Below the pieces are notes generated by a model that worked only from the letters and a program-made list of their open reading frames with translations, was not told where the DNA came from and made no database searches. Shown piece by piece: positions 7,980 through 35,314 of a stretch of DNA of 64,000 nucleotides; position 1 is the first letter of the stretch; each line of letters opens with the position of its first letter. The DNA is taken from assembly GCF_055900595.2 (NCBI RefSeq), contig NZ_CM148325.1; one strand, 5' to 3'. The position numbers and the translations under genes were made by a program.

Positions 7980-8600
7980 TGTCGTCGATATTCTTCCAGC
8001 GTCTTATTGTTCAGTGATTCATGTGTGCGTTCATAGCTATATTCTGATAACCATTTCTCCGTAATTTCTAGAACTTCATTCAGCGTTCTGAACAGATAAA
8101 AATCGAGTATTTCTGTACGGTGTGTCCTGTTAAAACGCCCAATAAAAGCGTTCTACGTCAGCTTACCCGGCTGGATAAACTCCCGTTTTACTGCGTGTAT
8201 ATCAGCCCATTCAGCCAGCGTTAGAGAGATAAATTCCGAACCATTATCTATGCGCAGCATGACCGGATAACTGCGATTTGCCGCGAACCTGCTGCCTCAG
8301 AACCTGAAAAAGTTTTGAAAAACCGTATCGAGGATATCGCTCGTCCACTGCCTGCACCACCACAATAACGGGGTCGTACCACGTGGTATCCGGACGGTAA
8401 TGGGAAACCGTTCTGCTCTGGTTCAGACTCCGGCAGGCCTGATGGACACTGAGTCCAAATGTCGTTATCTGATGAGTAACAAGCTCACGCTTACAGGCTG
8501 GTTTTAAAGCTTTTTTCGATAATGTCTTTCAATGCCGGTTCTCTAGGCTAAGGTCGGCAAGCATCTGTTTTGGACGTCGGTTCTCGTCCTCAAGATCCTC
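7980..8600 (-). pseudogene. IS3-family OrfB remnant, heavily decayed
   Basis: minus-strand translation shows scattered integrase-core-like stretches broken by many stops. Confidence 0.35.
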
Positions 8601-16421: not shown

Positions 16422-18509
16422 ATGCGAGTAACCACTCTGGCTTCAGTAGCCATCCCTTGTCTCGGGTTTTCAGTCAGCAGTATGGCTGCGGAAGATGTGA
16501 TGGTAGTCACGGCGTCTGGCTATGAAAAAAAATTAACCAGTGCAGCTGCGAGTGTTTCAGTGATCAGCCAGGAGGATTTGCGATCCAGCCAGTATCATGA
16601 TCTGGGGGAGGCACTGAGATCCGTAGAGGGGGTGGATGTTGAAAGCGGTACGGGTAAAACAGGTGGGCTGGAAATCAGCATCCGCGGAATGCCTGCCAGT
16701 TATACGCTGATACTGATCGATGGTGTCCGTCAGGGCGGGAGCAGTGACGTAACCCCAAACGGTTATGCTGCCATGAATACGGGTTTTATGCCACCTCTGG
16801 CCGCCATCGAACGTATTGAGATTATCAGGGGCCCCATGTCCACTCTGTACGGCTCTGATGCCATGGGGGGCGTGGTGAATATCATCACCAAAAAGAATGC
16901 AGACAAATGGCGCTCTTCGGTTAATGCCGGGCTGAACCTGCAGGAAAGTAACAAATGGGGGAACAGCAGCCAGTTTAATTTCTGGAGCAGCGGTCCCCTT
17001 GTGGATGATTCACTCAGCCTTCAGGTACGTGGCAGCACACAGCAGCGTCAGGGCTCATCGGTCACATCACTGAGCGACACCTCAGCTACGCGTATCCCTT
17101 ATCCCACGGAATCACAGAATTATAATGCAGGTGGTCGTCTTGACTGGAAAGCGACGGACAAGGATGTACTCTGGATTGATATGGATATCGCCCGGCAGCG
17201 TTATGATAACCGAGATGGCCAGCTGGGCAGTCTGACGGGCGGTTATGATCGCACCCTGCGCTATGAGCGTAATAAAATTTCAGCAGGCTATGATCATACA
17301 TTCACCTTCGGAGCCTGGAAGTCATCCCTGAACTGGAATGAGACGGAAAATAAAGGCCGTCAGCTTGTACGTAGCGTACTGCAGCGTGATAAATGGGGGC
17401 TTGCCGGCCAGCCGAGGGAGCTTAAGGAGTCGAATCTTATCCTGAGCTCATTACTGTTTGCACCTCTGGGGGAATCACACAAGGTTACCGTCGGTGGTGA
17501 GTATCAGAACTCCTCCATGAAAGACGGGGTTGTTCTCGCCAGTACTGGTGAAACCTTCCGTCAGAAAAGCTGGTCGGCATTTGTTGAGGATGAGTGGTAT
17601 ATCACGGATGCATTTGCACTGACTGCGGGTAGCCGCTATGAACGCTATGAGGTGTTCGGAGGACACTTCAGTCCCCGGGCATATATGGTCTGGGATGTGA
17701 CTGATGCGTGGACGCTGAAAGGTGGGGTGACCACGGGATATAAGGCGCCCAGCATGGGGCAGTTACATAAGGGGATCAGCGGTGTGTCCGGTCAGGGGCG
17801 TACGAATCTTCTCGGTAACCCGGACCTGAAGCCGGAGGAGAGTGTCAGTTATGAAGCGGGCGTGTATTACGATAATCATGCCGGTCTGAACGCCAATATC
17901 ACGGGCTTTATGACAGAATTCTCCAACAAGATCGTATCTTATTCCATTGATGATAATACCCGCAGCTACACAAACAGCGGAAAGGCTAGGACTCAGGGCG
18001 TGGAATTTGCCGGCACACTGCCTCTGTTGTCAGAGGATGTGACTCTGTCTCTGAATTATACCTGGACGCAGAGTGAACAACGGGATGGGGATAATAAAGG
18101 TGCACCACTGAGTTACACCCCTGAGCATATGGTGAATGCGAAACTGAACTGGCAGATTACTGAAGAGGTGACATCATGGCTGGGTGCCCGTTACCGCGGG
18201 AAAACGCCACGTTTCACCCAGAATTATTCGTCACTCTCAGCTGTACAGAAGAAAGTGTATGATGAGAAAGGTGAATATCTGAAAGCCTGGACGGTACTGG
18301 ATGCGGGCATGTCGTGGAAAGTGACGGATGCACTGATGCTGAATGCAGCGGTGAATAATGTGCTTAACAAGGATTACAGTGACGTAAGTCTGTATCGTGC
18401 CGGCAGTGGTACGCTTTATGCGGGTGATTACTTCCAGACGGGGGCATCGACAACGGGTTATGTGATACCTGAGAGAAATTACTGGATGTCGCTGAACTAT
18501 CAGTTCTGA
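16422..18509 (+). CDS. iha: TonB-dependent outer-membrane siderophore receptor / adhesin Iha
   Basis: 695-aa ORF with signal peptide, plug domain, beta-barrel and C-terminal aromatic residue; matches remembered Iha N-terminus. Confidence 0.85.
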   Translation: MRVTTLASVAIPCLGFSVSSMAAEDVMVVTASGYEKKLTSAAASVSVISQEDLRSSQYHDLGEALRSVEGVDVESGTGKTGGLEISIRGMPASYTLILIDGVRQGGSSDVTPNGYAAMNTGFMPPLAAIERIEIIRGPMSTLYGSDAMGGVVNIITKKNADKWRSSVNAGLNLQESNKWGNSSQFNFWSSGPLVDDSLSLQVRGSTQQRQGSSVTSLSDTSATRIPYPTESQNYNAGGRLDWKATDKDVLWIDMDIARQRYDNRDGQLGSLTGGYDRTLRYERNKISAGYDHTFTFGAWKSSLNWNETENKGRQLVRSVLQRDKWGLAGQPRELKESNLILSSLLFAPLGESHKVTVGGEYQNSSMKDGVVLASTGETFRQKSWSAFVEDEWYITDAFALTAGSRYERYEVFGGHFSPRAYMVWDVTDAWTLKGGVTTGYKAPSMGQLHKGISGVSGQGRTNLLGNPDLKPEESVSYEAGVYYDNHAGLNANITGFMTEFSNKIVSYSIDDNTRSYTNSGKARTQGVEFAGTLPLLSEDVTLSLNYTWTQSEQRDGDNKGAPLSYTPEHMVNAKLNWQITEEVTSWLGARYRGKTPRFTQNYSSLSAVQKKVYDEKGEYLKAWTVLDAGMSWKVTDALMLNAAVNNVLNKDYSDVSLYRAGSGTLYAGDYFQTGASTTGYVIPERNYWMSLNYQF

Positions 18510-22252: not shown

Positions 22253-23581
22253 CTGATGAATCCCCTAATGATTTTTATCAAAATCATTAAGTTAAGGTAG
22301 ATACACATCTTGTCATATGATCAAATGGTTTCGCCAAAAATCAATAATCAGACAACAAAATGTGCGAACTCGATATTTTACACGACTCTCTTTACCAATT
22401 CTGCCCCGAATTACACTTAAAACGACTCAACAGCTTAACGTTGGCTTGCCACGCCTTACTTGACTGTAAAACTCTCACTCTTACCGAACTTGGCCGTAAC
22501 CTGCCAACCAAAGCGAGAACAAAACATAACATCAAACGAATCGACCGATTGTTAGGTAATCGTCACCTCCACAAAGAGCGACTCGCTGTATACCGTTGGC
22601 ATGCTAGCTTTATCTGTTCGGGCAATACGATGCCCATTGTACTTGTTGACTGGTCTGATATCCGTGAGCAAAAACGGCTTATGGTATTGCGAGCTTCAGT
22701 CGCACTACACGGTCGTTCTGTTACTCTTTATGAGAAAGCGTTCCCGCTTTCAGAGCAATGTTCAAAGAAAGCTCATGACCAATTTCTAGCCGACCTTGCG
22801 AGCATTCTACCGAGTAACACCACACCGCTCATTGTCAGTGATGCTGGCTTTAAAGTGCCATGGTATAAATCCGTTGAGAAGCTGGGTTGGTACTGGTTAA
22901 GTCGAGTAAGAGGAAAAGTACAATATGCAGACCTAGGAGCGGAAAACTGGAAACCTATCAGCAACTTACATGATATGTCATCTAGTCACTCAAAGACTTT
23001 AGGCTATAAGAGGCTGACTAAAAGCAATCCAATCTCATGCCAAATTCTATTGTATAAATCTCGCTCTAAAGGCCGAAAAAATCAGCGCTCGACACGGACT
23101 CATTGTCACCACCCGTCACCTAAAATCTACTCAGCGTCGGCAAAGGAGCCATGGATTCTAGCAACTAACTTACCTGTTGAAATTCGAACACCCAAACAAC
23201 TTGTTAATATCTATTCGAAGCGAATGCAGATTGAAGAAACCTTCCGAGACTTGAAAAGTCCTGCCTACGGACTAGGCCTACGCCATAGCCGAACGAGCAG
23301 CTCAGAGCGTTTTGATATCATGCTGCTAATCGCCCTGATGCTTCAACTAACATGTTGGCTTGCGGGCGTTCATGCTCAGAAACAAGGTTGGGACAAGCAC
23401 TTCCAGGCTAACACAGTCAGAAATCGAAACGTACTCTCAACAGTTCGCTTAGGCATGGAAGTTTTGCGGCATTCTGGCTACACAATAACAAGGGAAGACT
23501 CACTCGTGGCTGCAACCCTGCTTACTCAAAATCTATTCACACATGGTTACGTTTTGGGGAAATTATGAGGGGATCTCTCAG
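22253..23581 (+). mobile_element. IS10, complete
   Basis: 1329 bp; outside end CTGATGAATCCCCTAATGATTTT at 22253, inside end ...GGGGATCTCTCAG at 23581. Confidence 0.95.
22360..23568 (+). CDS. IS10 transposase
   Basis: 402-aa ORF matching remembered IS10 transposase (MCELDILHDSLYQFCPELHLKRLNS...). Confidence 0.95.
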   Translation: MCELDILHDSLYQFCPELHLKRLNSLTLACHALLDCKTLTLTELGRNLPTKARTKHNIKRIDRLLGNRHLHKERLAVYRWHASFICSGNTMPIVLVDWSDIREQKRLMVLRASVALHGRSVTLYEKAFPLSEQCSKKAHDQFLADLASILPSNTTPLIVSDAGFKVPWYKSVEKLGWYWLSRVRGKVQYADLGAENWKPISNLHDMSSSHSKTLGYKRLTKSNPISCQILLYKSRSKGRKNQRSTRTHCHHPSPKIYSASAKEPWILATNLPVEIRTPKQLVNIYSKRMQIEETFRDLKSPAYGLGLRHSRTSSSERFDIMLLIALMLQLTCWLAGVHAQKQGWDKHFQANTVRNRNVLSTVRLGMEVLRHSGYTITREDSLVAATLLTQNLFTHGYVLGKL

Positions 23582-26301: not shown

Positions 26302-28281
26302 ATGGGCAGACCGTTAAAAACTTTATTCAAACGTGAGCATAGTGAAGAAATCAGTAACCCGAGCGATAACCGCGCGTTTTCGCAGGTGGCGGAAGTCTAT
26401 TTGTCACGCCGCCGTCTGTTACAGGCAGGCACGGTCGCCGGTGCCGCGGCAGCGTTCCCATTTCTGCTGAAACAGGAAAACGCGCTGGCGAAAGTGGTCT
26501 CCAAAGCAAGCGGTAACCTCGGCAAAGCGACGACGCTCGGTTTCACCAGCCTGCCGGTTTCCACGGAAGATACCGTTATCGTGCCGGAAGGATACATCGC
26601 GAAGCCCTTCTACAAATGGGGCGACGCCACCGGGATTGCCGGAAATCTGCCGGTTTTTAAAACCGACGGTAGCAACACCACGGAAGAACAGGCGGCGCAG
26701 GCCGGGATGCACCACGACGGCATGGCGTGGTTTAGCCTGCCGCAGGGCGGGAACAGCTCCGATCACGGCCTGCTTGCCATAAACCATGAATACATCGATA
26801 ACGGTCTACTGTTTAAAGATGGCGATGCCAACTGGAGCGCCGATAAAGCTCTTAAAGGCCAGAACGCGATGGGCGTGTCGGTCATTGAAGTAAAAAAAGT
26901 GCCCCTGGGCTGGGAAGTGGTGCGCCCGTCATCGTTCGCACGCCGCATCACCGTTAACACGCCGATGAAAATCACCGGTCCGGCGCTGCATAACCCACTG
27001 ATGCAAACAGTTGACGATCCGAAAGGCGAAATCATTCTCGGCACCATGCAGAACTGTGCCAACGGATTTACGCCGTGGGGCACCTATCTGACGTGTGAAG
27101 AGAACTGGTCCGATATTTTCGTAAAAAAAGCAGAGATGAACCCGCTGGAAAAACGTTACGGTATCAGCGGGAGCGACGACTCTTACCGCTGGAACGAAGT
27201 GGATAAAAGGTTCAGCGTCGACGCCACGCCGAACGAGCCGAACCGCTTCGGCTGGGTGGTGGAAATCGATCCATACGATCCGCATTCAGTGCCGCGCAAG
27301 CACACCGCGCTTGGTCGCATCAAACACGAAGGCGCAGCGGTGACAATTGCCCCGGATAACCGCGTTGTGGTCTATATGGGCGATGACCAGAAATTCGAAT
27401 ACATATATAAATTTGTCTCGGAAGGAAAATTCAACCCGCAGGATCGCAAAGCCAACATGCACCTGCTGGAAAAAGGCACTCTGTACGTGGCGAAATTTAA
27501 CGACGACGGCAAAGGCGAGTGGCTACCGCTGGTGTTCGGACAAAATGGGCTCGACGCCAGTAAAGGGTTTGAAAACCAGGGCGACCTGTTGATTAAAACC
27601 CGTCTGGCGGCAGACGCCGTGGGGGCCACTAAAATGGACCGCCCGGAGTGGATTGCGGTCGATCCATATCACGCCGGCAGCGTTTACTGCACGCTCACCA
27701 ACAACAGCGATCGCGGTAAGGAAGGAAAAGCGCCAGTGGATGCGGCCAACCCGCGCGCCAAAAACGTTTACGGCCACATCATTCACTGGTTGGAGCATAA
27801 CGGTGACCCGACCGCGCTGCAGTTTGCCTGGGATATTCTTGTGATGGGCGGTCGCACCGATACAGACAAACTGGAAACCAAAGGCAGCATGAAGGGTGCG
27901 GAATTCGGCAGCGCCGATGGCCTGAGCTTTGATCACCGCGGCGTGCTATGGATCCAGACCGACGTGTCGTCATCAACCATAAATATTAAAGATTACAAAG
28001 GCATGGGCAACAACCAGATGGTGGCGACGATTCCCGGTACCAATGAGTTCCGCCGCTTCCTGACCGGCCCGCGCGGCTGCGAAATCACCGGCATCGCGTT
28101 CACTCCGGATAACCGGACGCTGTTTATTAACATCCAGCACCCTGGCGAGCCAAGCGAAGGGCTTAGCGATCCGCAGCATCCGACGGCAGTATCAAGCTGG
28201 CCTGACGGCGATAAGGCTGGTCGTCCGCGCTCCTCAACTGTCGTTATCGTAAAAGCCGACGGCGGCATAATCGGCACCTGA
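26302..28281 (+). CDS. PhoX-family (DUF839) Tat-secreted phosphatase-like protein
   Basis: 659-aa ORF with twin-arginine signal SRRRLLQAGTVAGAAAAFP and beta-propeller-like repeats. Confidence 0.55.
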   Translation: MGRPLKTLFKREHSEEISNPSDNRAFSQVAEVYLSRRRLLQAGTVAGAAAAFPFLLKQENALAKVVSKASGNLGKATTLGFTSLPVSTEDTVIVPEGYIAKPFYKWGDATGIAGNLPVFKTDGSNTTEEQAAQAGMHHDGMAWFSLPQGGNSSDHGLLAINHEYIDNGLLFKDGDANWSADKALKGQNAMGVSVIEVKKVPLGWEVVRPSSFARRITVNTPMKITGPALHNPLMQTVDDPKGEIILGTMQNCANGFTPWGTYLTCEENWSDIFVKKAEMNPLEKRYGISGSDDSYRWNEVDKRFSVDATPNEPNRFGWVVEIDPYDPHSVPRKHTALGRIKHEGAAVTIAPDNRVVVYMGDDQKFEYIYKFVSEGKFNPQDRKANMHLLEKGTLYVAKFNDDGKGEWLPLVFGQNGLDASKGFENQGDLLIKTRLAADAVGATKMDRPEWIAVDPYHAGSVYCTLTNNSDRGKEGKAPVDAANPRAKNVYGHIIHWLEHNGDPTALQFAWDILVMGGRTDTDKLETKGSMKGAEFGSADGLSFDHRGVLWIQTDVSSSTINIKDYKGMGNNQMVATIPGTNEFRRFLTGPRGCEITGIAFTPDNRTLFINIQHPGEPSEGLSDPQHPTAVSSWPDGDKAGRPRSSTVVIVKADGGIIGT

Positions 28282-30218: not shown

Positions 30219-30790
30219 GATGAAACCGTTACATTATACAGCTTCATCACTGGTGCTCGGACTGGCGTTAATGGGCAATGCACAGGCAGTGACGACCATT
30301 CCGTTTTGGAACTCTATGGAAGGGGAAATGGGCAAAGAGGTGGATACAACTGGAAAACTTTAGCGCCAGGAACGGTCTGCCGTTTGCCAGCAAAAACAAC
30401 GGTTTTGACGCCACGGACGCGGTGCTGGAGTTCAACAAGCCGGAGCAGGTGAAACACATCGTCATGCTCGAGGAGATGAACAAGAAGGGCGACTTCATCT
30501 ACGTCGGGCGTAAGGATGAATCCACCGAGAAGTTCTATAGAGGTGATTGCGCGATGACCACCGCCTCTTCCGGTTCTCTTGCCAACATTCGCGAGTACGC
30601 CAAATTCAACTACGGCGTAGGCATGATGCCTTACGACGCTGACGCGAAAGATGCACCACAAAACGCCATTATCGGCGGAGCCAGCCTGTGGGTGATGCAG
30701 GGCAAAGATAAAGAAACGTATACCGGCGCAGGCGAAAAGCTGGCGGTAGGGGAATCATCGGATCTTTCTGCTCATCCGGCGTTATCTCCA
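30219..30790 (+). pseudogene. ugpB: ugpB remnant: N-terminus, large internal deletion, 3' truncation
   Basis: [27 protein letters not shown] then stop; resumes [12 protein letters not shown]...[22 protein letters not shown]; diverges after about 30745. Confidence 0.7.
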
Positions 30791-30990
30791 TAGGTAATAA
30801 TTCAACGCCTGCGTCAGAAGTGGTTGTTACCGGAAGACGCCGCGAAACACGCCCTTCGTTTTGCCAGAGTCTGAGCCATTTGAAAATAACATTATCATTG
30901 ATGCCAGACTCTCGTGCAATCTGGGCCACACAGGCTCCGGGTAAAAGAGTTTGCTGAACAAGTCTCCATTTTTACTCTGGTGAAAATCGG
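30669..30990 (-). pseudogene. IS3/IS66-type OrfA (HTH transposase) remnant
   Basis: RRNRFSPE-KWRLVQQTLLPGACVAQIARESGINDNVIFKW with in-frame stop. Confidence 0.4.
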
Positions 30991-31024
30991 TTCCGACGGG
31001 TTTTCTCTGTTTTTACAGGCTGAG

Positions 31025-31272
31025 TCACTGTCGGGGCTGAATATTATCGCCCCGGGAAAAGAGCCCGGTCAGTTGCACGCAGGAATATTCACCAGAAAGA
31101 TGCCCGTCAGTGAATACCTGATGAAATCGCCTCACCAGAGAAAAAATAGCGGTTTTGCTGACACCGGTCTGTGCAGAAATGCGCGGGTACGACAGTGTCT
31201 CGTCAAATTTCAGTTGTAGCAAACGCAGGATCAATTCCGGATTATCTGCCAGTACCGCCTTTCGTGCATTCA
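31025..31272 (-). CDS. hypothetical HTH-domain protein
   Basis: MNARKAVLADNPELILRLLQ...YPRISAQTGVSKTAIFSLV; start taken at internal Met of ORF 31025..31393. Confidence 0.3.
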
Positions 31273-31556
31273 TCGTAAATGTCCTTTTACTGCGAAAATG
31301 GACATTAGCATAGGAAACAGGAAAGGGAGGCGAAAGACGTTTTAATGAGACGGTTACTTTTTCTGCGCTCCTGCTGTTTTTTCTTAATCTCATCCAGTCG
31401 CTTCCCCGCGTTCGCCAGGTGCTCCTGTGTCACCTTCCCGCATGGATGGTCTTTCAGGTCGTAACGCACGCCACCAGCCATCAGGGCCGGTAATGTTCCA
31501 CCAGCGGTATATATTCTCCCGAGTCACGCCCGCTGGTATCGTGTTTCCCCCGCCAG

Positions 31557-31877
31557 TTAATAACCGTCATCGTTAACGCTATCAGGGTAATCGCGCCATA
31601 TTTCATCAGTAAGCGACGGTAGCCCCATTTTTTGTATTGTCCTGTCTGCGGCCTTTCTGACTGTATGAATATCAATACGGCTTTCAGGTATCGGGCGTTT
31701 TGCCTTCCTGATACATTCCCTTGCTCTCATTACTGCAAGCTGTCTGTGACTGTCTTTCTCAAGAGTAATCATCACATCCTGCCACCTTCTGGCAGCACGT
31801 CGCCACAGTCCCCTGCTCTCGAGTTCTTCCGCTGTCGCGTCGCTTATTGTCCGGCTCTTCAGTGTGCTGTTGTTCAT
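31557..31877 (-). CDS. PerC-family transcriptional regulator (PerC/Pch-like)
   Basis: 106-aa ORF with LESRGLWRRAARRW, RECIRKAKRPIPE and WRDYP motifs. Confidence 0.6.
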   Translation of the reverse strand: MNNSTLKSRTISDATAEELESRGLWRRAARRWQDVMITLEKDSHRQLAVMRARECIRKAKRPIPESRIDIHTVRKAADRTIQKMGLPSLTDEIWRDYPDSVNDDGY

Positions 31878-31894
31878 GTTGCGCCCCGCTTAAT

Positions 31895-32167
31895 TCATAA
31901 GGGTATATCATCTCCGTAAGTGGCGTCGCCTCCCGTTGGTGGCTGATTACCCTGTGTACCTGTGGTTTCGCGTCTGCTTCCTCCTGGCCGCACCGTTTGA
32001 GTACTGATTACGCTGTCTGCGATAACCTGCCGTCCCTGCCGCGTTTTCCCGTTCTGCCCTGTCCACTGGCTGACCTGCATGTTACCTGCCACGCTTACCA
32101 GTTCGCCTTTCTGGTGTCTGGCCAGTGCTTCGGCCTGTCTGCCAAACGCCAGCACAGATAACCACAT
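31895..32167 (-). pseudogene. single-stranded DNA-binding protein, C-terminal fragment
   Basis: FGRQAEALARHQKGELVSVAGNMQVSQWTGQNG resembles the SSB OB-fold C-terminal half; Gly/Gln-rich linker; acidic tail DDIPL. Confidence 0.5.
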
Positions 32168-32339
32168 TGTCGCCTGTCCGTCATCGAATATGTTTTATCG
32201 CCACTTTCCGGAATATCAATTAACTTAATTAATAACGCGTCCATTTCCTTTGCGCAGATTAATGCATTTTCAGAGTGGATTAATACTTCAAAAGGGATTT
32301 TATTCATGGCTCACCCCTCACGAATACGCTGTTTCTTAT

Positions 32340-32984
32340 ACATAAATCCCCACCCGGGGTGAAATCATACACCTCGTGATTGATTCCAACGGGCTAAAAG
32401 TCTTTGGGGAAGGCGAAAGGAAAGCCAAAAAGCACGGCAAAGAGGGGCGTCGCATCTGTCTGTTGATGGCAACACACATGAAATTGTCTGTGCAGACCTG
32501 TCGCTGAACAACGTCACGGACTCAGAAGCCTTCCCGGGGCTTCTCCAACAGACTCACAGAAAAATCATGGCTGCAGCGGTAGACGGGGCTTACGCCCCCC
32601 GACTCTGTCACGATGAACTGAGGCGTAAGAAAATCAGCGCGCTTACCCCTTCCCGAAAAGGTGCGGGTTACTAGCCCGGTGAATACGAAGACCGTAACCG
32701 TGCAGTGGCTAATCAGCGGCTGACCGGAAGTAATGCCCGGTGTAAATGGACAACAGATTATAACCGTCGTTCGATAGCGGAAACAGCGATGTACCGGGTA
32801 AAACAGTTGTTCGGAGGTTCACTGACGCTGCGTGACTACGATGGTCAGGTTGCAGAGGGTATGGTCATGGCGCTAGCGCTGAATAAAATCACGAAAGTAG
32901 GTATGCCTGAGAGCGTGCGTATTGCCTGAAAGCACAACTAGCTACGGGGCTCTTACCCTAAATCAGATTTTTTCAACAAAGCCC
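32340..32984 (+). pseudogene. IS903-like (IS5-family) element, 3' part with frameshifts and terminal inverted repeat
   Basis: C-terminus ...AETAMYRVKQLFGGSLTLRDYDGQVAEGMV...GMPESVRIA; terminal IR GGGCTTTGTTGAAAAAATCTGATTTAGGG on the opposite strand. Confidence 0.7.
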
Positions 32985-33226: not shown

Positions 33227-33616
33227 ATGAAGAAACAAAAATTCTTTATTGTGAGTTCTATACTTGTAATGTGTTTATCTACCAGTCATATATCTTTGGC
33301 TTCCGGACTGGATAAAAATATGCAGAGCCTTGCAAGAAATATGAGCACTCTACAATCCTCTGGTGATAAAAAATCTCTATTAAATGCTCTTGATATGATG
33401 GACAAAGCTGTAAATGCTTCCATGAATACTCTTCCTGAAAAAATAAACAGCAACGATAAAGTCGCAGTGGAAAGTTATAAGAATGAGTTGAAGAAACTAC
33501 AAAATGAAATCAATCTTGCAAAAGAGAAGGTTGAGTCGGGGAATATAGAGTCACTACGTGATGCTCTGGATAAAATGAATAATATAAAACTGGAAGGCCA
33601 CCGAAAATTCAGATAA
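33227..33616 (+). CDS. cytochrome b562-family protein, divergent
   Basis: 129 aa; signal peptide; predicted mature protein keeps Met7 and a His four residues from the C-terminus (HRKFR), as in cytochrome b562. Confidence 0.55.
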   Translation: MKKQKFFIVSSILVMCLSTSHISLASGLDKNMQSLARNMSTLQSSGDKKSLLNALDMMDKAVNASMNTLPEKINSNDKVAVESYKNELKKLQNEINLAKEKVESGNIESLRDALDKMNNIKLEGHRKFR

Positions 33617-35314
33617 ATAATATTCTATAGAAAAATTTAATTTTATTTCTAAATACGGCAAAGTATTTTACTGTAATTTGCCGTATTTAATAATGTGTTA
33701 AACCTTAAATTATCCAATCCTAATTTAGGAATGCACTCCACGGCCAAACAGTCATACTCACACCTACAACATATAACTATATATTAATTTTATTGATTTT
33801 CCTTCTTGCGTTTACACAAAAACTAACATTATGTGAAACTCCCCTCAGCTTATTTTACAAAATAACATCATGATTAAGTAAATCGGTGAATTTGCTCCTA
33901 TATGTCCAGACATCTGTTATCACTTACCCTGTTACGGCCCTTCAACAGCAGAAGATTCAGGGGTAGTCTAAGCGCTAAGAACACGTTCCCGAAAATTGAG
34001 GTAAACACGTTATGACAGCAACGTAAAATAAAACAGAGAACGTGCAGCGTTTTTTTAGTCATAATGAACATGTAGAGTCCGTTTGTTCATACTCTGTGGT
34101 TATCTTCAAGCGTTCATCCCTGGCGCTGCCAGATAGCGTTTTCGTTCTTACAGTCAATGCGCACCCGATACTGAATATCGGCTTTATTCCCCCTGGCGGT
34201 GAGATGCGCTGTGACTAAATTATCACCTTTACTTACCAGCTCACGAAGATTCACCCAGACAACAGGACGCTGCTGACTGAGGAGCACCTAGTCATCTTTC
34301 CTGTGAAGCACCTGTTTCTGGAGATAGTTCCGTTTGACGCTGGCTGAAACAGCCGATGCTTCCTGCCCTTCACATCGTGGAAAACTGACGGTTCTTTTTT
34401 ATCAGCAGCCAGTGATGATGCACAGATACCGAAGATGAGCAGAATTGAAGAGAGTGTTTTGTTCATTTACAGAATCCCATCATGGATAGCTTATTGCAAA
34501 GTTATACTTTAACAACACAAAATATCATTTTTTGAAACAATATTCACATAACTGCTTATCCCGTCACTTCCCGTTTTATATCGGCAGCACCGTCTGTCTT
34601 TCCTATTGATGCGATTCGTATAATTTATTTTACCCATGAGAAACTCACATTTAAATTTATGAGATGTAATATATGAAGAATAAGGAAATATCCGGATAGG
34701 TGGGTTGTGAAAAAGTTAGCGGCAATAACTTAACTACAATAACCGGCACGTTTTCAACGCTGGCGCAGGCAAGTGCGGACAAAACGGGATTCTTTATCAC
34801 GGGTAAAACTTGTGCATCTGTGACGGTATTAATCCTGTTCATCATGATGCCTCTGTACAAGAAAGCTATGCTGTGCCTCCGGATTATTACGGCCAGTAAT
34901 ATTAGGTATTATGAGGCTCTCAACCGAAAAATCAGTGCACGACATTTTGAGGGCATTTCCCAGTGGCTTACTGGTATAAGATCATGATATTACTGCATTT
35001 GATCCTGCTGCTAAAACTAATCGGGACACGGTTTTTATGATTTTTGACGGAAGCAGGTATATTCCTCTGAGCGTCCTGAAATCGAAGGATTTTATTTTCC
35101 TGGAAAATAAGTAAATCATCTGATAAAAACAATATATTCACAAAGGATAAAATTATTTTGATAAACAGTCGGAAATATTAAAAGTGTCTGTTGTATTCTC
35201 ATTGTCCATTATTCCCTGATTACATAGTAGAATACCCGGAGCCAGACATATCCTAAACCGCCCTGTTTTTACTCGGGGTATATTTACTGTATAACTAACT
35301 GGTGATAATGCTTT

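What the first reader, a model, noticed from the sequence alone, without database searches (positions are those of the whole stretch)
31272..31877. PerC/Pch-family regulator encoded among IS debris
ORF 31557-31877 carries the PerC-family signature (GLWRRAARRW, RPIPE, WRDYP). PerC/Pch proteins activate virulence regulons (LEE ler) in EPEC/EHEC and are usually phage- or island-borne. It is intact here and adjacent to an SSB fragment and an IS903 remnant, consistent with a prophage or plasmid-derived module.
Basis: partly seen in the sequence, partly recalled or inferred. Interest (0 to 1): 0.5.

Follow-up and report, generated by a model that had tools for sequence, protein, structure and literature searches.

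The report
PerC-family gene in a phage-satellite relic
The ORF is a real, intact and already annotated PerC-family regulator gene, left over from a decayed phage satellite (PICI) inside an E. coli genomic island and closest to PchE, which does not activate LEE, so the finding is correct but ordinary.

Summary
Window 31557-31877 on the minus strand encodes an intact 106-aa protein that matches Pfam PerC (PF06069, E=7e-28). It is identical to RefSeq WP_001066120.1, 'PerC family transcriptional regulator'.

The interpretation needs refining. The gene comes from a phage-inducible chromosomal island (PICI), which is a phage satellite, rather than from a prophage or plasmid. Window 31360-32307 is a collage of PICI pieces in PICI gene order. 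An IS5-family remnant bounds it upstream and an IS66-family end bounds it downstream.
- the 5' stub of an early gene;
- ssb lacking its first ~120 nt;
- perC;
- the 3' end of a proQ/finO gene.

One carrier genome (ECCNB12-2) also holds an intact relative: int, alpA, icd, DUF4222, primase, ssb, perC (87% aa identity), proQ/finO, terS.

The protein is 50% identical to PchE of the O157 satellite Sp7/EcCIEDL933. It is only 32-36% identical to EPEC PerC and PchA. Published tests found that PchD and PchE had little or no effect on LEE, and that another PICI PerC-like protein represses LEE1.

The native promoter region is gone. The most likely reading is a weakly expressed or silent relic of an accessory H-NS anti-silencer type regulator. 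Interest is low.

The parts
31557..31877 (-). perC-family gene, 106 aa, intact; identical to RefSeq WP_001066120.1
   Evidence: ORF list. Pfam PF06069 PerC E=7e-28. RefSeq annotation in L001. Identity: 50% to Sakai PchE, 36% to PchA, 32% to EPEC PerC, and 87% to the PerC of the intact PICI L017.
31895..32191 (-). 3' two-thirds of a satellite-type ssb gene; the first ~120 nt are missing. It ends 18 nt upstream of perC, the same spacing as in the intact satellite.
   Evidence: NCBIfam SSB TIGR00621 E=4.5e-10, profile positions 52-125 of 165. 78-88% nt identity to ssb of the satellites L002, L005, L006, L010 and L017.
32198..32307 (-). 5' stub of a small PICI early gene, which in intact satellites lies between the icd-like and DUF4222 genes. 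It is fused by a deletion to the ssb fragment; DUF4222, primase and the 5' end of ssb are lost.
   Evidence: 84.5% nt identity to L010 8001-8110, the start of WP_000549005.1. phrog_2196 matches residues 1-27 only.
31360..31494 (-). 3' end of a ProQ/FinO-domain gene. RefSeq calls a 58-aa ORF at 31305-31481. A 372-bp deletion relative to the intact satellite removed the 5' two-thirds.
   Evidence: NCBIfam ProQ/FinO match to the C-terminal part only. 93.4% identity to L017 13001-13136, with L017 12629-13000 missing. L011 shows perC followed by the start of a full-length proQ/finO gene.
30669..31362 (-). IS66-family end and tnpA pseudogene. Its insertion cut the satellite off from its terS module.
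   Evidence: IS66 TnpA NF038385 E=1.3e-15. RefSeq flags it as frameshifted with an internal stop. Positions 31290-31362 match IS66-type ends in hundreds of records. Metagenome contig L012 continues past 31360 into a terS gene instead.
32349..32958 (+). IS5-family transposase remnant, 3' part only, which bounds the satellite relic upstream of perC
   Evidence: NF033579 IS5-family matches to two ORF pieces. RefSeq lists it as a frameshifted, N-terminally truncated pseudogene. About 87% nt identity to IS5-family copies on Klebsiella plasmids.

Best explanation
The ORF is an intact PerC-family gene of the PchE-like, satellite-borne branch. It survives as the only complete gene of a decayed phage-inducible chromosomal island (PICI). 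That relic lies inside a larger, IS-riddled genomic island carrying iha, ICE pseudogenes, PhoX and an integrase next to ynjA.

In an intact satellite the gene sits in the rightward operon: alpA, icd, DUF4222, primase, ssb, perC, proQ/finO, terS. It would therefore be made when a helper phage induces the satellite; this step is inferred.

By analogy with PchA, which has been studied experimentally, the protein is a small all-helical factor. It changes transcription of particular horizontally acquired or H-NS-silenced loci by disturbing H-NS/StpA/Hha nucleoprotein complexes, rather than acting as a classical HTH activator. This too is inferred from the family.

Given its closest characterised relatives, it is unlikely to activate ler/LEE. 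If it is active, effects of the PchE type are more plausible, such as repression of csgD/curli, adhesion or flagella.

In this window two deletions and two IS elements have removed the promoter-proximal part of the operon. The gene is therefore probably transcribed poorly or only by read-through, and it is best regarded as a relic that has not yet decayed.
For: - Family: Pfam PerC E=7e-28, and the invariant RRA..W core is present.
- Branch: 50% identity to Sakai PchE (ECs_1588), including the C-terminal WR(D/N)YPDS, against 36% to PchA and 32% to EPEC PerC.
- pchE context: it lies directly after ssb in Sp7, an int-primase-ssb-pchE-capsid-terSL element. This is the Sakai counterpart of the published capsid-forming PICI EcCIEDL933 (bioRxiv 10.1101/2022.09.08.507074).
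- Intact relative: L017 has int, AlpA (PF05930 E=4.5e-16), icd-like, DUF4222, primase, ssb, PerC (106 aa, 87% identity), ProQ/FinO and terS, spanning about 9.5 kb between cspD and clpS.
- Relic structure: the window aligns to L017 in two collinear blocks separated by a 372-bp deletion, and to L010 for the early-gene stub.
- Lost module: metagenome contig L012 (99% identical) runs past the IS66 junction into a Nu1-like terS (phrog_57, E=5.5e-63).
- Literature:
  - PerC variants are common accessory genes of E. coli PICIs (PMC6092414).
  - A PICI PerC-like protein silences LEE1 (PMC11773190).
  - Pch acts by relieving H-NS/StpA/Hha silencing (PMC4764244).
- Expression: no sigma-70-like promoter lies on the minus strand between perC and the IS5 remnant, and a terminator-like hairpin sits at the junction.
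- Decay: frameshifted alleles exist in some strains (P0005, P0006 and L004).
Against: - The ORF is intact and identical in most carriers. It was seen on at least 1000 contigs. dN/dS is 0.26-0.43 against two relatives. This leaves room for retained function rather than a neutral relic.
- The promoter scan is a simple consensus search and cannot exclude weak, non-sigma-70 or read-through transcription.
- No functional data exist for this allele. Its 50% identity to PchE does not guarantee the same targets.
- One review-type statement says that some PICI PerC homologues do activate LEE (PMC6092414).
- The H-NS anti-silencing mechanism was shown only for PchA, which is 36% identical.
Confidence: 0.75

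Rival explanations
1. This is the first reader's reading: a working virulence regulator that activates ler/LEE or another virulence regulon in its host, like PerC or PchA-C.
For: The protein has true PerC-family membership and an intact ORF. It lies in an island that carries the adhesin gene iha. PMC6092414 states that some PICI-encoded PerC homologues activate LEE.
Against: - Identity is only 32-36% to PerC and PchA, and it is closest to PchE.
- The PchD and PchE groups had little effect on LEE (PMC6265319).
- The EcCIEDL933 and EcCICFT073 PerC-like genes had no effect on LEE1, and EcCIMP1_025 represses it (PMC11773190).
- The native promoter is lost.
- The listed carriers come from chickens, swine, healthy humans and clinical samples. 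I could not test whether any of them carries LEE.
Confidence: 0.07
2. The gene is a domesticated regulator. It has been kept by selection after the satellite decayed, and it modulates host or island genes such as csgD/curli, flagella, or H-NS-silenced island genes including iha.
For: It is the only complete gene of the relic, while every neighbour is truncated or a pseudogene. The identical ORF is seen on at least 1000 contigs. dN/dS is below 1. PchE shows this kind of host-gene effect (PMC6265319, PMC7369912).
Against: - A 321-nt ORF can easily stay intact by chance in a recent relic.
- The dN/dS values mostly reflect history inside mobile satellites, and the numbers are small.
- Frameshifted alleles occur.
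- No promoter was found.
- The block is present in only about 51 of 5426 complete genomes.
Confidence: 0.15
3. The module derives from the leading or regulatory region of a plasmid, since conjugative plasmids also carry ssb and FinO.
For: ssb and FinO-domain genes are classic plasmid genes. PerC itself was first described on the EPEC pEAF plasmid.
Against: The block matches 1016 chromosomal places against 1 plasmid place. The best plasmid PerC homologue is 47.8% identical. Plasmid DNA hits to the region cover only the IS66 part. The ssb, perC and proQ pieces are 78-93% identical at the nt level, and collinear, with chromosomal satellites.
Confidence: 0.02

Closest known systems
PchE (ECs_1588) of E. 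coli O157:H7 Sakai 'prophage' Sp7, the counterpart of the capsid-forming PICI EcCIEDL933; 'group 3' pch
   Same: Both belong to Pfam PerC. They are 50% identical over 90 aa, including the C-terminal DEIWR(D/N)YPDS. Both genes lie immediately downstream of a satellite ssb.
   Different: The window protein has a 10-residue N-terminal and a 6-residue C-terminal extension. pchE is followed by a capsid module, whereas this lineage has proQ/finO and a Nu1-like terS. Here the satellite is destroyed. No functional data exist for this allele.
PerC gene of the intact PICI at cspD-clpS in E. coli ECCNB12-2 (WP_001066127.1; L017)
   Same: Both are 106 aa and 87% identical at the aa level. The gene order is the same (ssb, 17-18 nt, perC, proQ/finO), and the DNA is 88-93% identical and collinear.
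   Different: L017 is a complete satellite with int, alpA, primase and terS. The window keeps only fragments around perC.
PerC of EPEC pEAF/pMAR2, and PchA/B/C of EHEC lambdoid prophages ('group 1'), which activate LEE1/ler
   Same: Same Pfam family, the same invariant RRA..W core, similar size, and a mobile-element location.
   Different: Identity is only 32% to PerC and 36% to PchA. The genetic context differs: the per operon on a plasmid and the late region of lambdoid prophages, against a satellite replication operon here. LEE activation has been shown for those proteins and is not expected here.
EcCIMP1_025, the PerC-like gene of PICI EcCIMP1 (PMC11773190)
   Same: It is also a PerC-family accessory gene carried by an E. 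coli PICI.
   Different: That protein was shown experimentally to silence LEE1 in C. rodentium. I did not have its sequence, so identity to the window protein was not measured.

Membership tests
PerC family (Pfam PF06069) | Significant full-length match to the family profile | tested here: met
   E=7e-28, residues 11-99 against model positions 2-89 of 90.
PerC family (Pfam PF06069) | Conserved N-terminal core (D..A..LE..G..RRA..RW) and a small size of about 90-105 aa | tested here: met
   R26, R27, A28 and W32 are invariant in 66 sequences; D13, A16, L19, E20, G23, R31 and C55 are at least 90% conserved. All are present in this 106-aa protein.
PerC family (Pfam PF06069) | Transcriptional effect on target promoters (LEE1/ler for PerC and PchA-C) | not testable with these tools
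   This needs a reporter assay. Published data on the closest branch (PchE and PICI PerC-like genes) show no LEE1 activation, or repression (PMC6265319, PMC11773190).
Group 1 Pch (PchA/B/C, LEE activators) | Close sequence similarity to PchA and a location in the late region of a lambdoid prophage | tested here: not met
   36% identity to PchA. pchA lies in lambda-like Sp4 near the lysis genes, whereas this gene follows a satellite ssb.
Group 3 Pch (PchE-like, satellite-borne) | Best similarity to PchE and synteny with ssb in a PICI-type element | tested here: met
   50% identity, the highest among the named homologues. The ssb-perC adjacency matches Sp7 and the L002, L010 and L017 satellites. 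At 50% identity it is a distinct sub-branch, not an orthologue.
Phage-inducible chromosomal island (PICI), for the element around the gene | int, alpA, primase/rep and ori, packaging or interference genes, about 10-15 kb, own att site | tested here: not met
   In the window only four fragments or genes remain: the early-gene stub, the ssb 3' part, perC and the proQ 3' end. No int, alpA, primase or terS belongs to them, so this is a relic and not a PICI. The intact relative L017 meets the criteria.
ANR (AraC negative regulator) family, suggested for one PICI PerC-like protein in PMC11773190 | Profile match to an ANR family | tested here: not met
   The Pfam scan returns only PerC, plus a non-significant DUF7423 hit at E=0.3.

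The most novel reading that the evidence does not exclude
The PerC-like gene is the one piece of a dead phage satellite that the host has kept on purpose. Under this reading it is a domesticated H-NS anti-silencer or modulator that tunes expression of the surrounding AT-rich iha island, or of host adhesion and motility genes. It would act through a TPR-like protein-interaction fold rather than direct HTH-type DNA binding.
Probability: 0.12. Interest if true: 0.4.

Novelty: already known. Interest (0 to 1): 0.12.

Why it matters
It matters little beyond annotation hygiene. RefSeq already names the protein as a PerC-family regulator, and PerC variants are a described accessory gene of E. coli PICIs.

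The useful correction is that a PerC-family hit is not evidence of a LEE or virulence activator. This allele belongs to the satellite-borne PchE-like branch, sits in a promoterless relic, and should not be scored as a virulence regulator without experiment.

The case also shows that small ssb, perC and proQ/finO debris in E. coli islands can be traced to decayed phage satellites.

Tried and rejected
- Plasmid origin. Megablast of 30800-32400 against plasmids hit only the IS66 part. tblastn gave PerC homologues of at most 47.8% identity. Rejected.
- pchD and SpLE1 as the source, because both islands carry iha. pchD lies next to ibrA/ybdM, has no ssb beside it, and is 35% identical. Rejected.
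- The 71-aa 'hypothetical protein' variant seen on 323 contigs as evidence of N-terminal disruption. The DNA is identical, so it is only a gene-caller start choice.
- A solved structure by sequence. None was found.
- NCBIfam has no model that hits the protein.
- Distant blastn of perC against E. coli genomes found no DNA-level relatives of the ORF beyond the ~51 carriers. Relatives had to be reached through ssb, proQ and terS synteny.
- Porter et al. 2005 (PMC543544), the primary paper on PerC-like proteins, is not held. Its results are cited only through PMC6265319 and PMC11773190.
- The tRNA and Rfam scans found nothing in or next to the finding.
- I could not cross-reference the carrier genomes with LEE presence using the available tools.

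Full report
**Observation.** The window has an ORF at 31557-31877 on the minus strand, with an ATG start, 106 codons and a stop. Its product is MNNSTLKSRTISDATAEELESRGLWRRAARRWQDVMITLEKDSHRQLAVMRARECIRKAKRPIPESRIDIHTVRKAADRTIQKMGLPSLTDEIWRDYPDSVNDDGY. It matches Pfam PerC (PF06069) at E=7e-28 over almost the whole model, and PHROG phrog_994 at E=3.6e-28. RefSeq already annotates the identical sequence as WP_001066120.1, 'PerC family transcriptional regulator'. The exact protein occurs on at least 1000 contigs in public assemblies. The 841-bp block around it is at least 99% identical in 49 of 5426 complete E. coli genomes, and 51 genomes cover at least 80% of it. Across all 875 genomes with any match, which are mostly ssb-only matches, 1016 of 1017 places are chromosomal.

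**Family signature.** In a 66-sequence alignment of family representatives the invariant residues are R26, R27, A28 and W32. 'WRDYP' is shared with PchE only, and 'RPIPE' is not conserved across the family.

**Immediate surroundings.** All the pieces around the gene lie on the minus strand. In transcription order they are as follows.
- **32198-32307:** the first ~110 nt of a small gene. In intact satellites this gene lies between the icd-like and DUF4222 genes (84.5% identity to L010).
- **31895-32191:** ssb lacking its first ~120 nt. It matches SSB profile positions 52-125 of 165 and is 78-88% identical at the nt level to satellite ssb genes.
- **perC,** 18 nt further downstream.
- **31360-31494:** the 3' end of a ProQ/FinO-domain gene.

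An IS5-family transposase remnant at 32349-32958 lies upstream of this set. An IS66-family end with a tnpA pseudogene, from 31362 leftwards, lies downstream. The 'IS903 remnant' is right at the level of the IS5 family.

**Where the module comes from.** Following ssb and proQ/finO homology led to intact elements.
- In O157:H7, ssb and a PerC-family gene lie together in a 15-kb element next to phoQ. It carries int, HTH, icd-like, DUF4222, RepA/primase, ssb, PerC, capsid genes and terS.
- In strain Sakai this element is 'prophage Sp7, untypable', and the gene is annotated pchE (ECs_1588). It is the counterpart of EcCIEDL933, the published prototype capsid-forming PICI (bioRxiv 10.1101/2022.09.08.507074; PMC11773190).
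- Other E. coli carry satellites with ssb, proQ/finO and perC.
- The best match is in strain ECCNB12-2, which also carries the relic (H26/H121). It holds a ~9.5-kb element between cspD/yljB and clpS. The gene order is integrase, AlpA (PF05930, E=4.5e-16), icd-like, DUF4222, primase, hypothetical, ssb (136 aa), PerC (106 aa), ProQ/FinO (194 aa), Nu1-like terS and hypothetical.

The window aligns to the ECCNB12-2 element (L017) in two collinear blocks. Window 32185->31494 corresponds to L017 11938-12628 at 88.3% identity. Window 31494->31360 corresponds to L017 13001-13136 at 93.4% identity. The window lineage has therefore lost 372 bp, the 5' two-thirds of proQ/finO, and everything upstream of codon ~41 of ssb.

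A metagenome contig (L012) is 99% identical to the window and runs past the IS66 junction. It continues through a terminator-like hairpin into a terS gene (phrog_57, E=5.5e-63). A second contig (L011) shows perC followed by the start of a full-length proQ/finO. The gene is thus the last complete ORF of a decayed PICI.

That relic is embedded in a larger degraded island. The island holds iha, ICE TIGR03756/7 pseudogenes, PhoX, ABC-transporter fragments, a cytochrome b562 paralogue, and a tyrosine integrase next to ynjA.

A plasmid origin is rejected. Plasmid DNA hits cover only the IS66 part. The best plasmid PerC homologue is 47.8% identical.

**Which kind of PerC.** Pairwise identities are as follows.

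| Homologue | Identity to window protein |
|---|---|
| PerC of the intact PICI L017 | 87% |
| Sakai PchE | 50% |
| Another satellite PerC (L006) | 41% |
| PchA | 36% |
| PchD | 35% |
| EPEC PerC | 32% |

**What the literature says about the branches.**
[quoted passage not shown] PchD and PchE have little effect on LEE. PchE represses csgD/curli and adhesion (PMC6265319) and affects flagella (PMC7369912).
- PerC variants are common accessory genes of E. coli PICIs (PMC6092414).
- The PerC-like genes of EcCIEDL933 and EcCICFT073 had no effect on LEE1 fusions. The one in EcCIMP1 silences LEE1 (PMC11773190).

The window protein belongs to this satellite-borne branch, not to the LEE-activating branch.

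[quoted passage not shown] Pch reduces H-NS occupancy at the LEE1 promoter, which makes it an anti-silencer (PMC4764244).

In an intact satellite the gene lies in the rightward operon after primase and ssb. It would therefore be expressed on helper-phage induction through AlpA; this is inferred from the PICI literature.

In the window that promoter-proximal part has been deleted. The consensus scan finds no sigma-70-like promoter on the minus strand between perC and the IS5 remnant. A terminator-like hairpin sits at 32364->32348. My best reading is an unexpressed or weakly expressed relic. Any residual activity would more likely resemble PchE than PerC or PchA.

**Is it maintained?** The ORF is identical in every carrier locus I read (L001, L013-L016). 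The 71-aa 'variant' is only an alternative start call. Frameshifted alleles do exist (P0005, P0006 and L004). dN/dS is 0.43 against the L011 allele and 0.26 against L012. These values mostly reflect evolution inside mobile satellites and rest on few substitutions. Domestication cannot be excluded, but it is not indicated.

**Verdict.** The family assignment is correct. The 'prophage or plasmid' origin is refined to a phage-satellite (PICI) relic. The implied LEE or virulence-activator role is not supported. The gene and its family, including their presence on PICIs, are already known and annotated, so interest is low.

Noticed in passing
L017 (NZ_CP033635.1 1593993-1603467): One carrier strain (ECCNB12-2) holds both the relic and an apparently intact ~9.5-kb PICI between cspD/yljB and clpS. 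The PICI has int, alpA, icd-like, DUF4222, primase, ssb, perC (87% aa identity), proQ/finO and a Nu1-like terS. About 767 complete E. coli genomes have matches to its proQ-terS segment.
   Followed up: partly
L005 8982-9479; L006 8906-9430; L017 12646-13230: E. coli phage satellites repeatedly carry a ProQ/FinO-domain protein (166-194 aa) next to ssb and perC. The gene order varies: ssb-proQ-perC in some and ssb-perC-proQ in others. What an RNA-chaperone-type protein does in a PICI is not obvious.
   Followed up: no
L006 2693-2989 and 8637-8909: One satellite-like element next to rcnR carries two different PerC-family genes.
   Followed up: no
window 22253-23581: A 1.33-kb insertion is absent from the otherwise collinear island of strain SCU-115. 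It has an IS4-family transposase ORF (22360-23568, NF033591 E=1.5e-120) and an Rfam RNA-OUT match (22298-22367, 97 bits), so it is an IS10-type element.
   Followed up: partly
window 8363-8505 (+): Full-length Rfam match to the Hfq-binding sRNA isrN (138 bits, gathering score 44), in the distal part of the island.
   Followed up: no
window 51662-51704 (-): Rfam match to the ES036 (CssrF) sRNA (42.9 bits, gathering score 37.6), in the core-genome part near cho/nadE.
   Followed up: no
window ~10143-38848: The surrounding island is heavily decayed. Going by ORF lengths and the RefSeq annotation of the collinear SCU-115 island, iha (16422-18509), PhoX (26302-28281), a cytochrome b562 paralogue (33227-33616), a short YebF-family ORF (34114-34287) and the tyrosine integrase (37631-38848) look intact. 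ICE TIGR03756/7 genes, ABC-transporter genes, glycosyltransferase genes and many transposases are pseudogenes. The integrase abuts ynjA, and ARAGORN finds no tRNA gene anywhere in the window.
   Followed up: partly
L009 37944-40147 (Sakai SpLE1): pchD (ECs_1388) lies directly downstream of ibrA and ybdM (ibrB-like) in SpLE1. This is a different context from pchA (lambdoid late region) and pchE (satellite), so each pch group has its own genetic setting.
   Followed up: no
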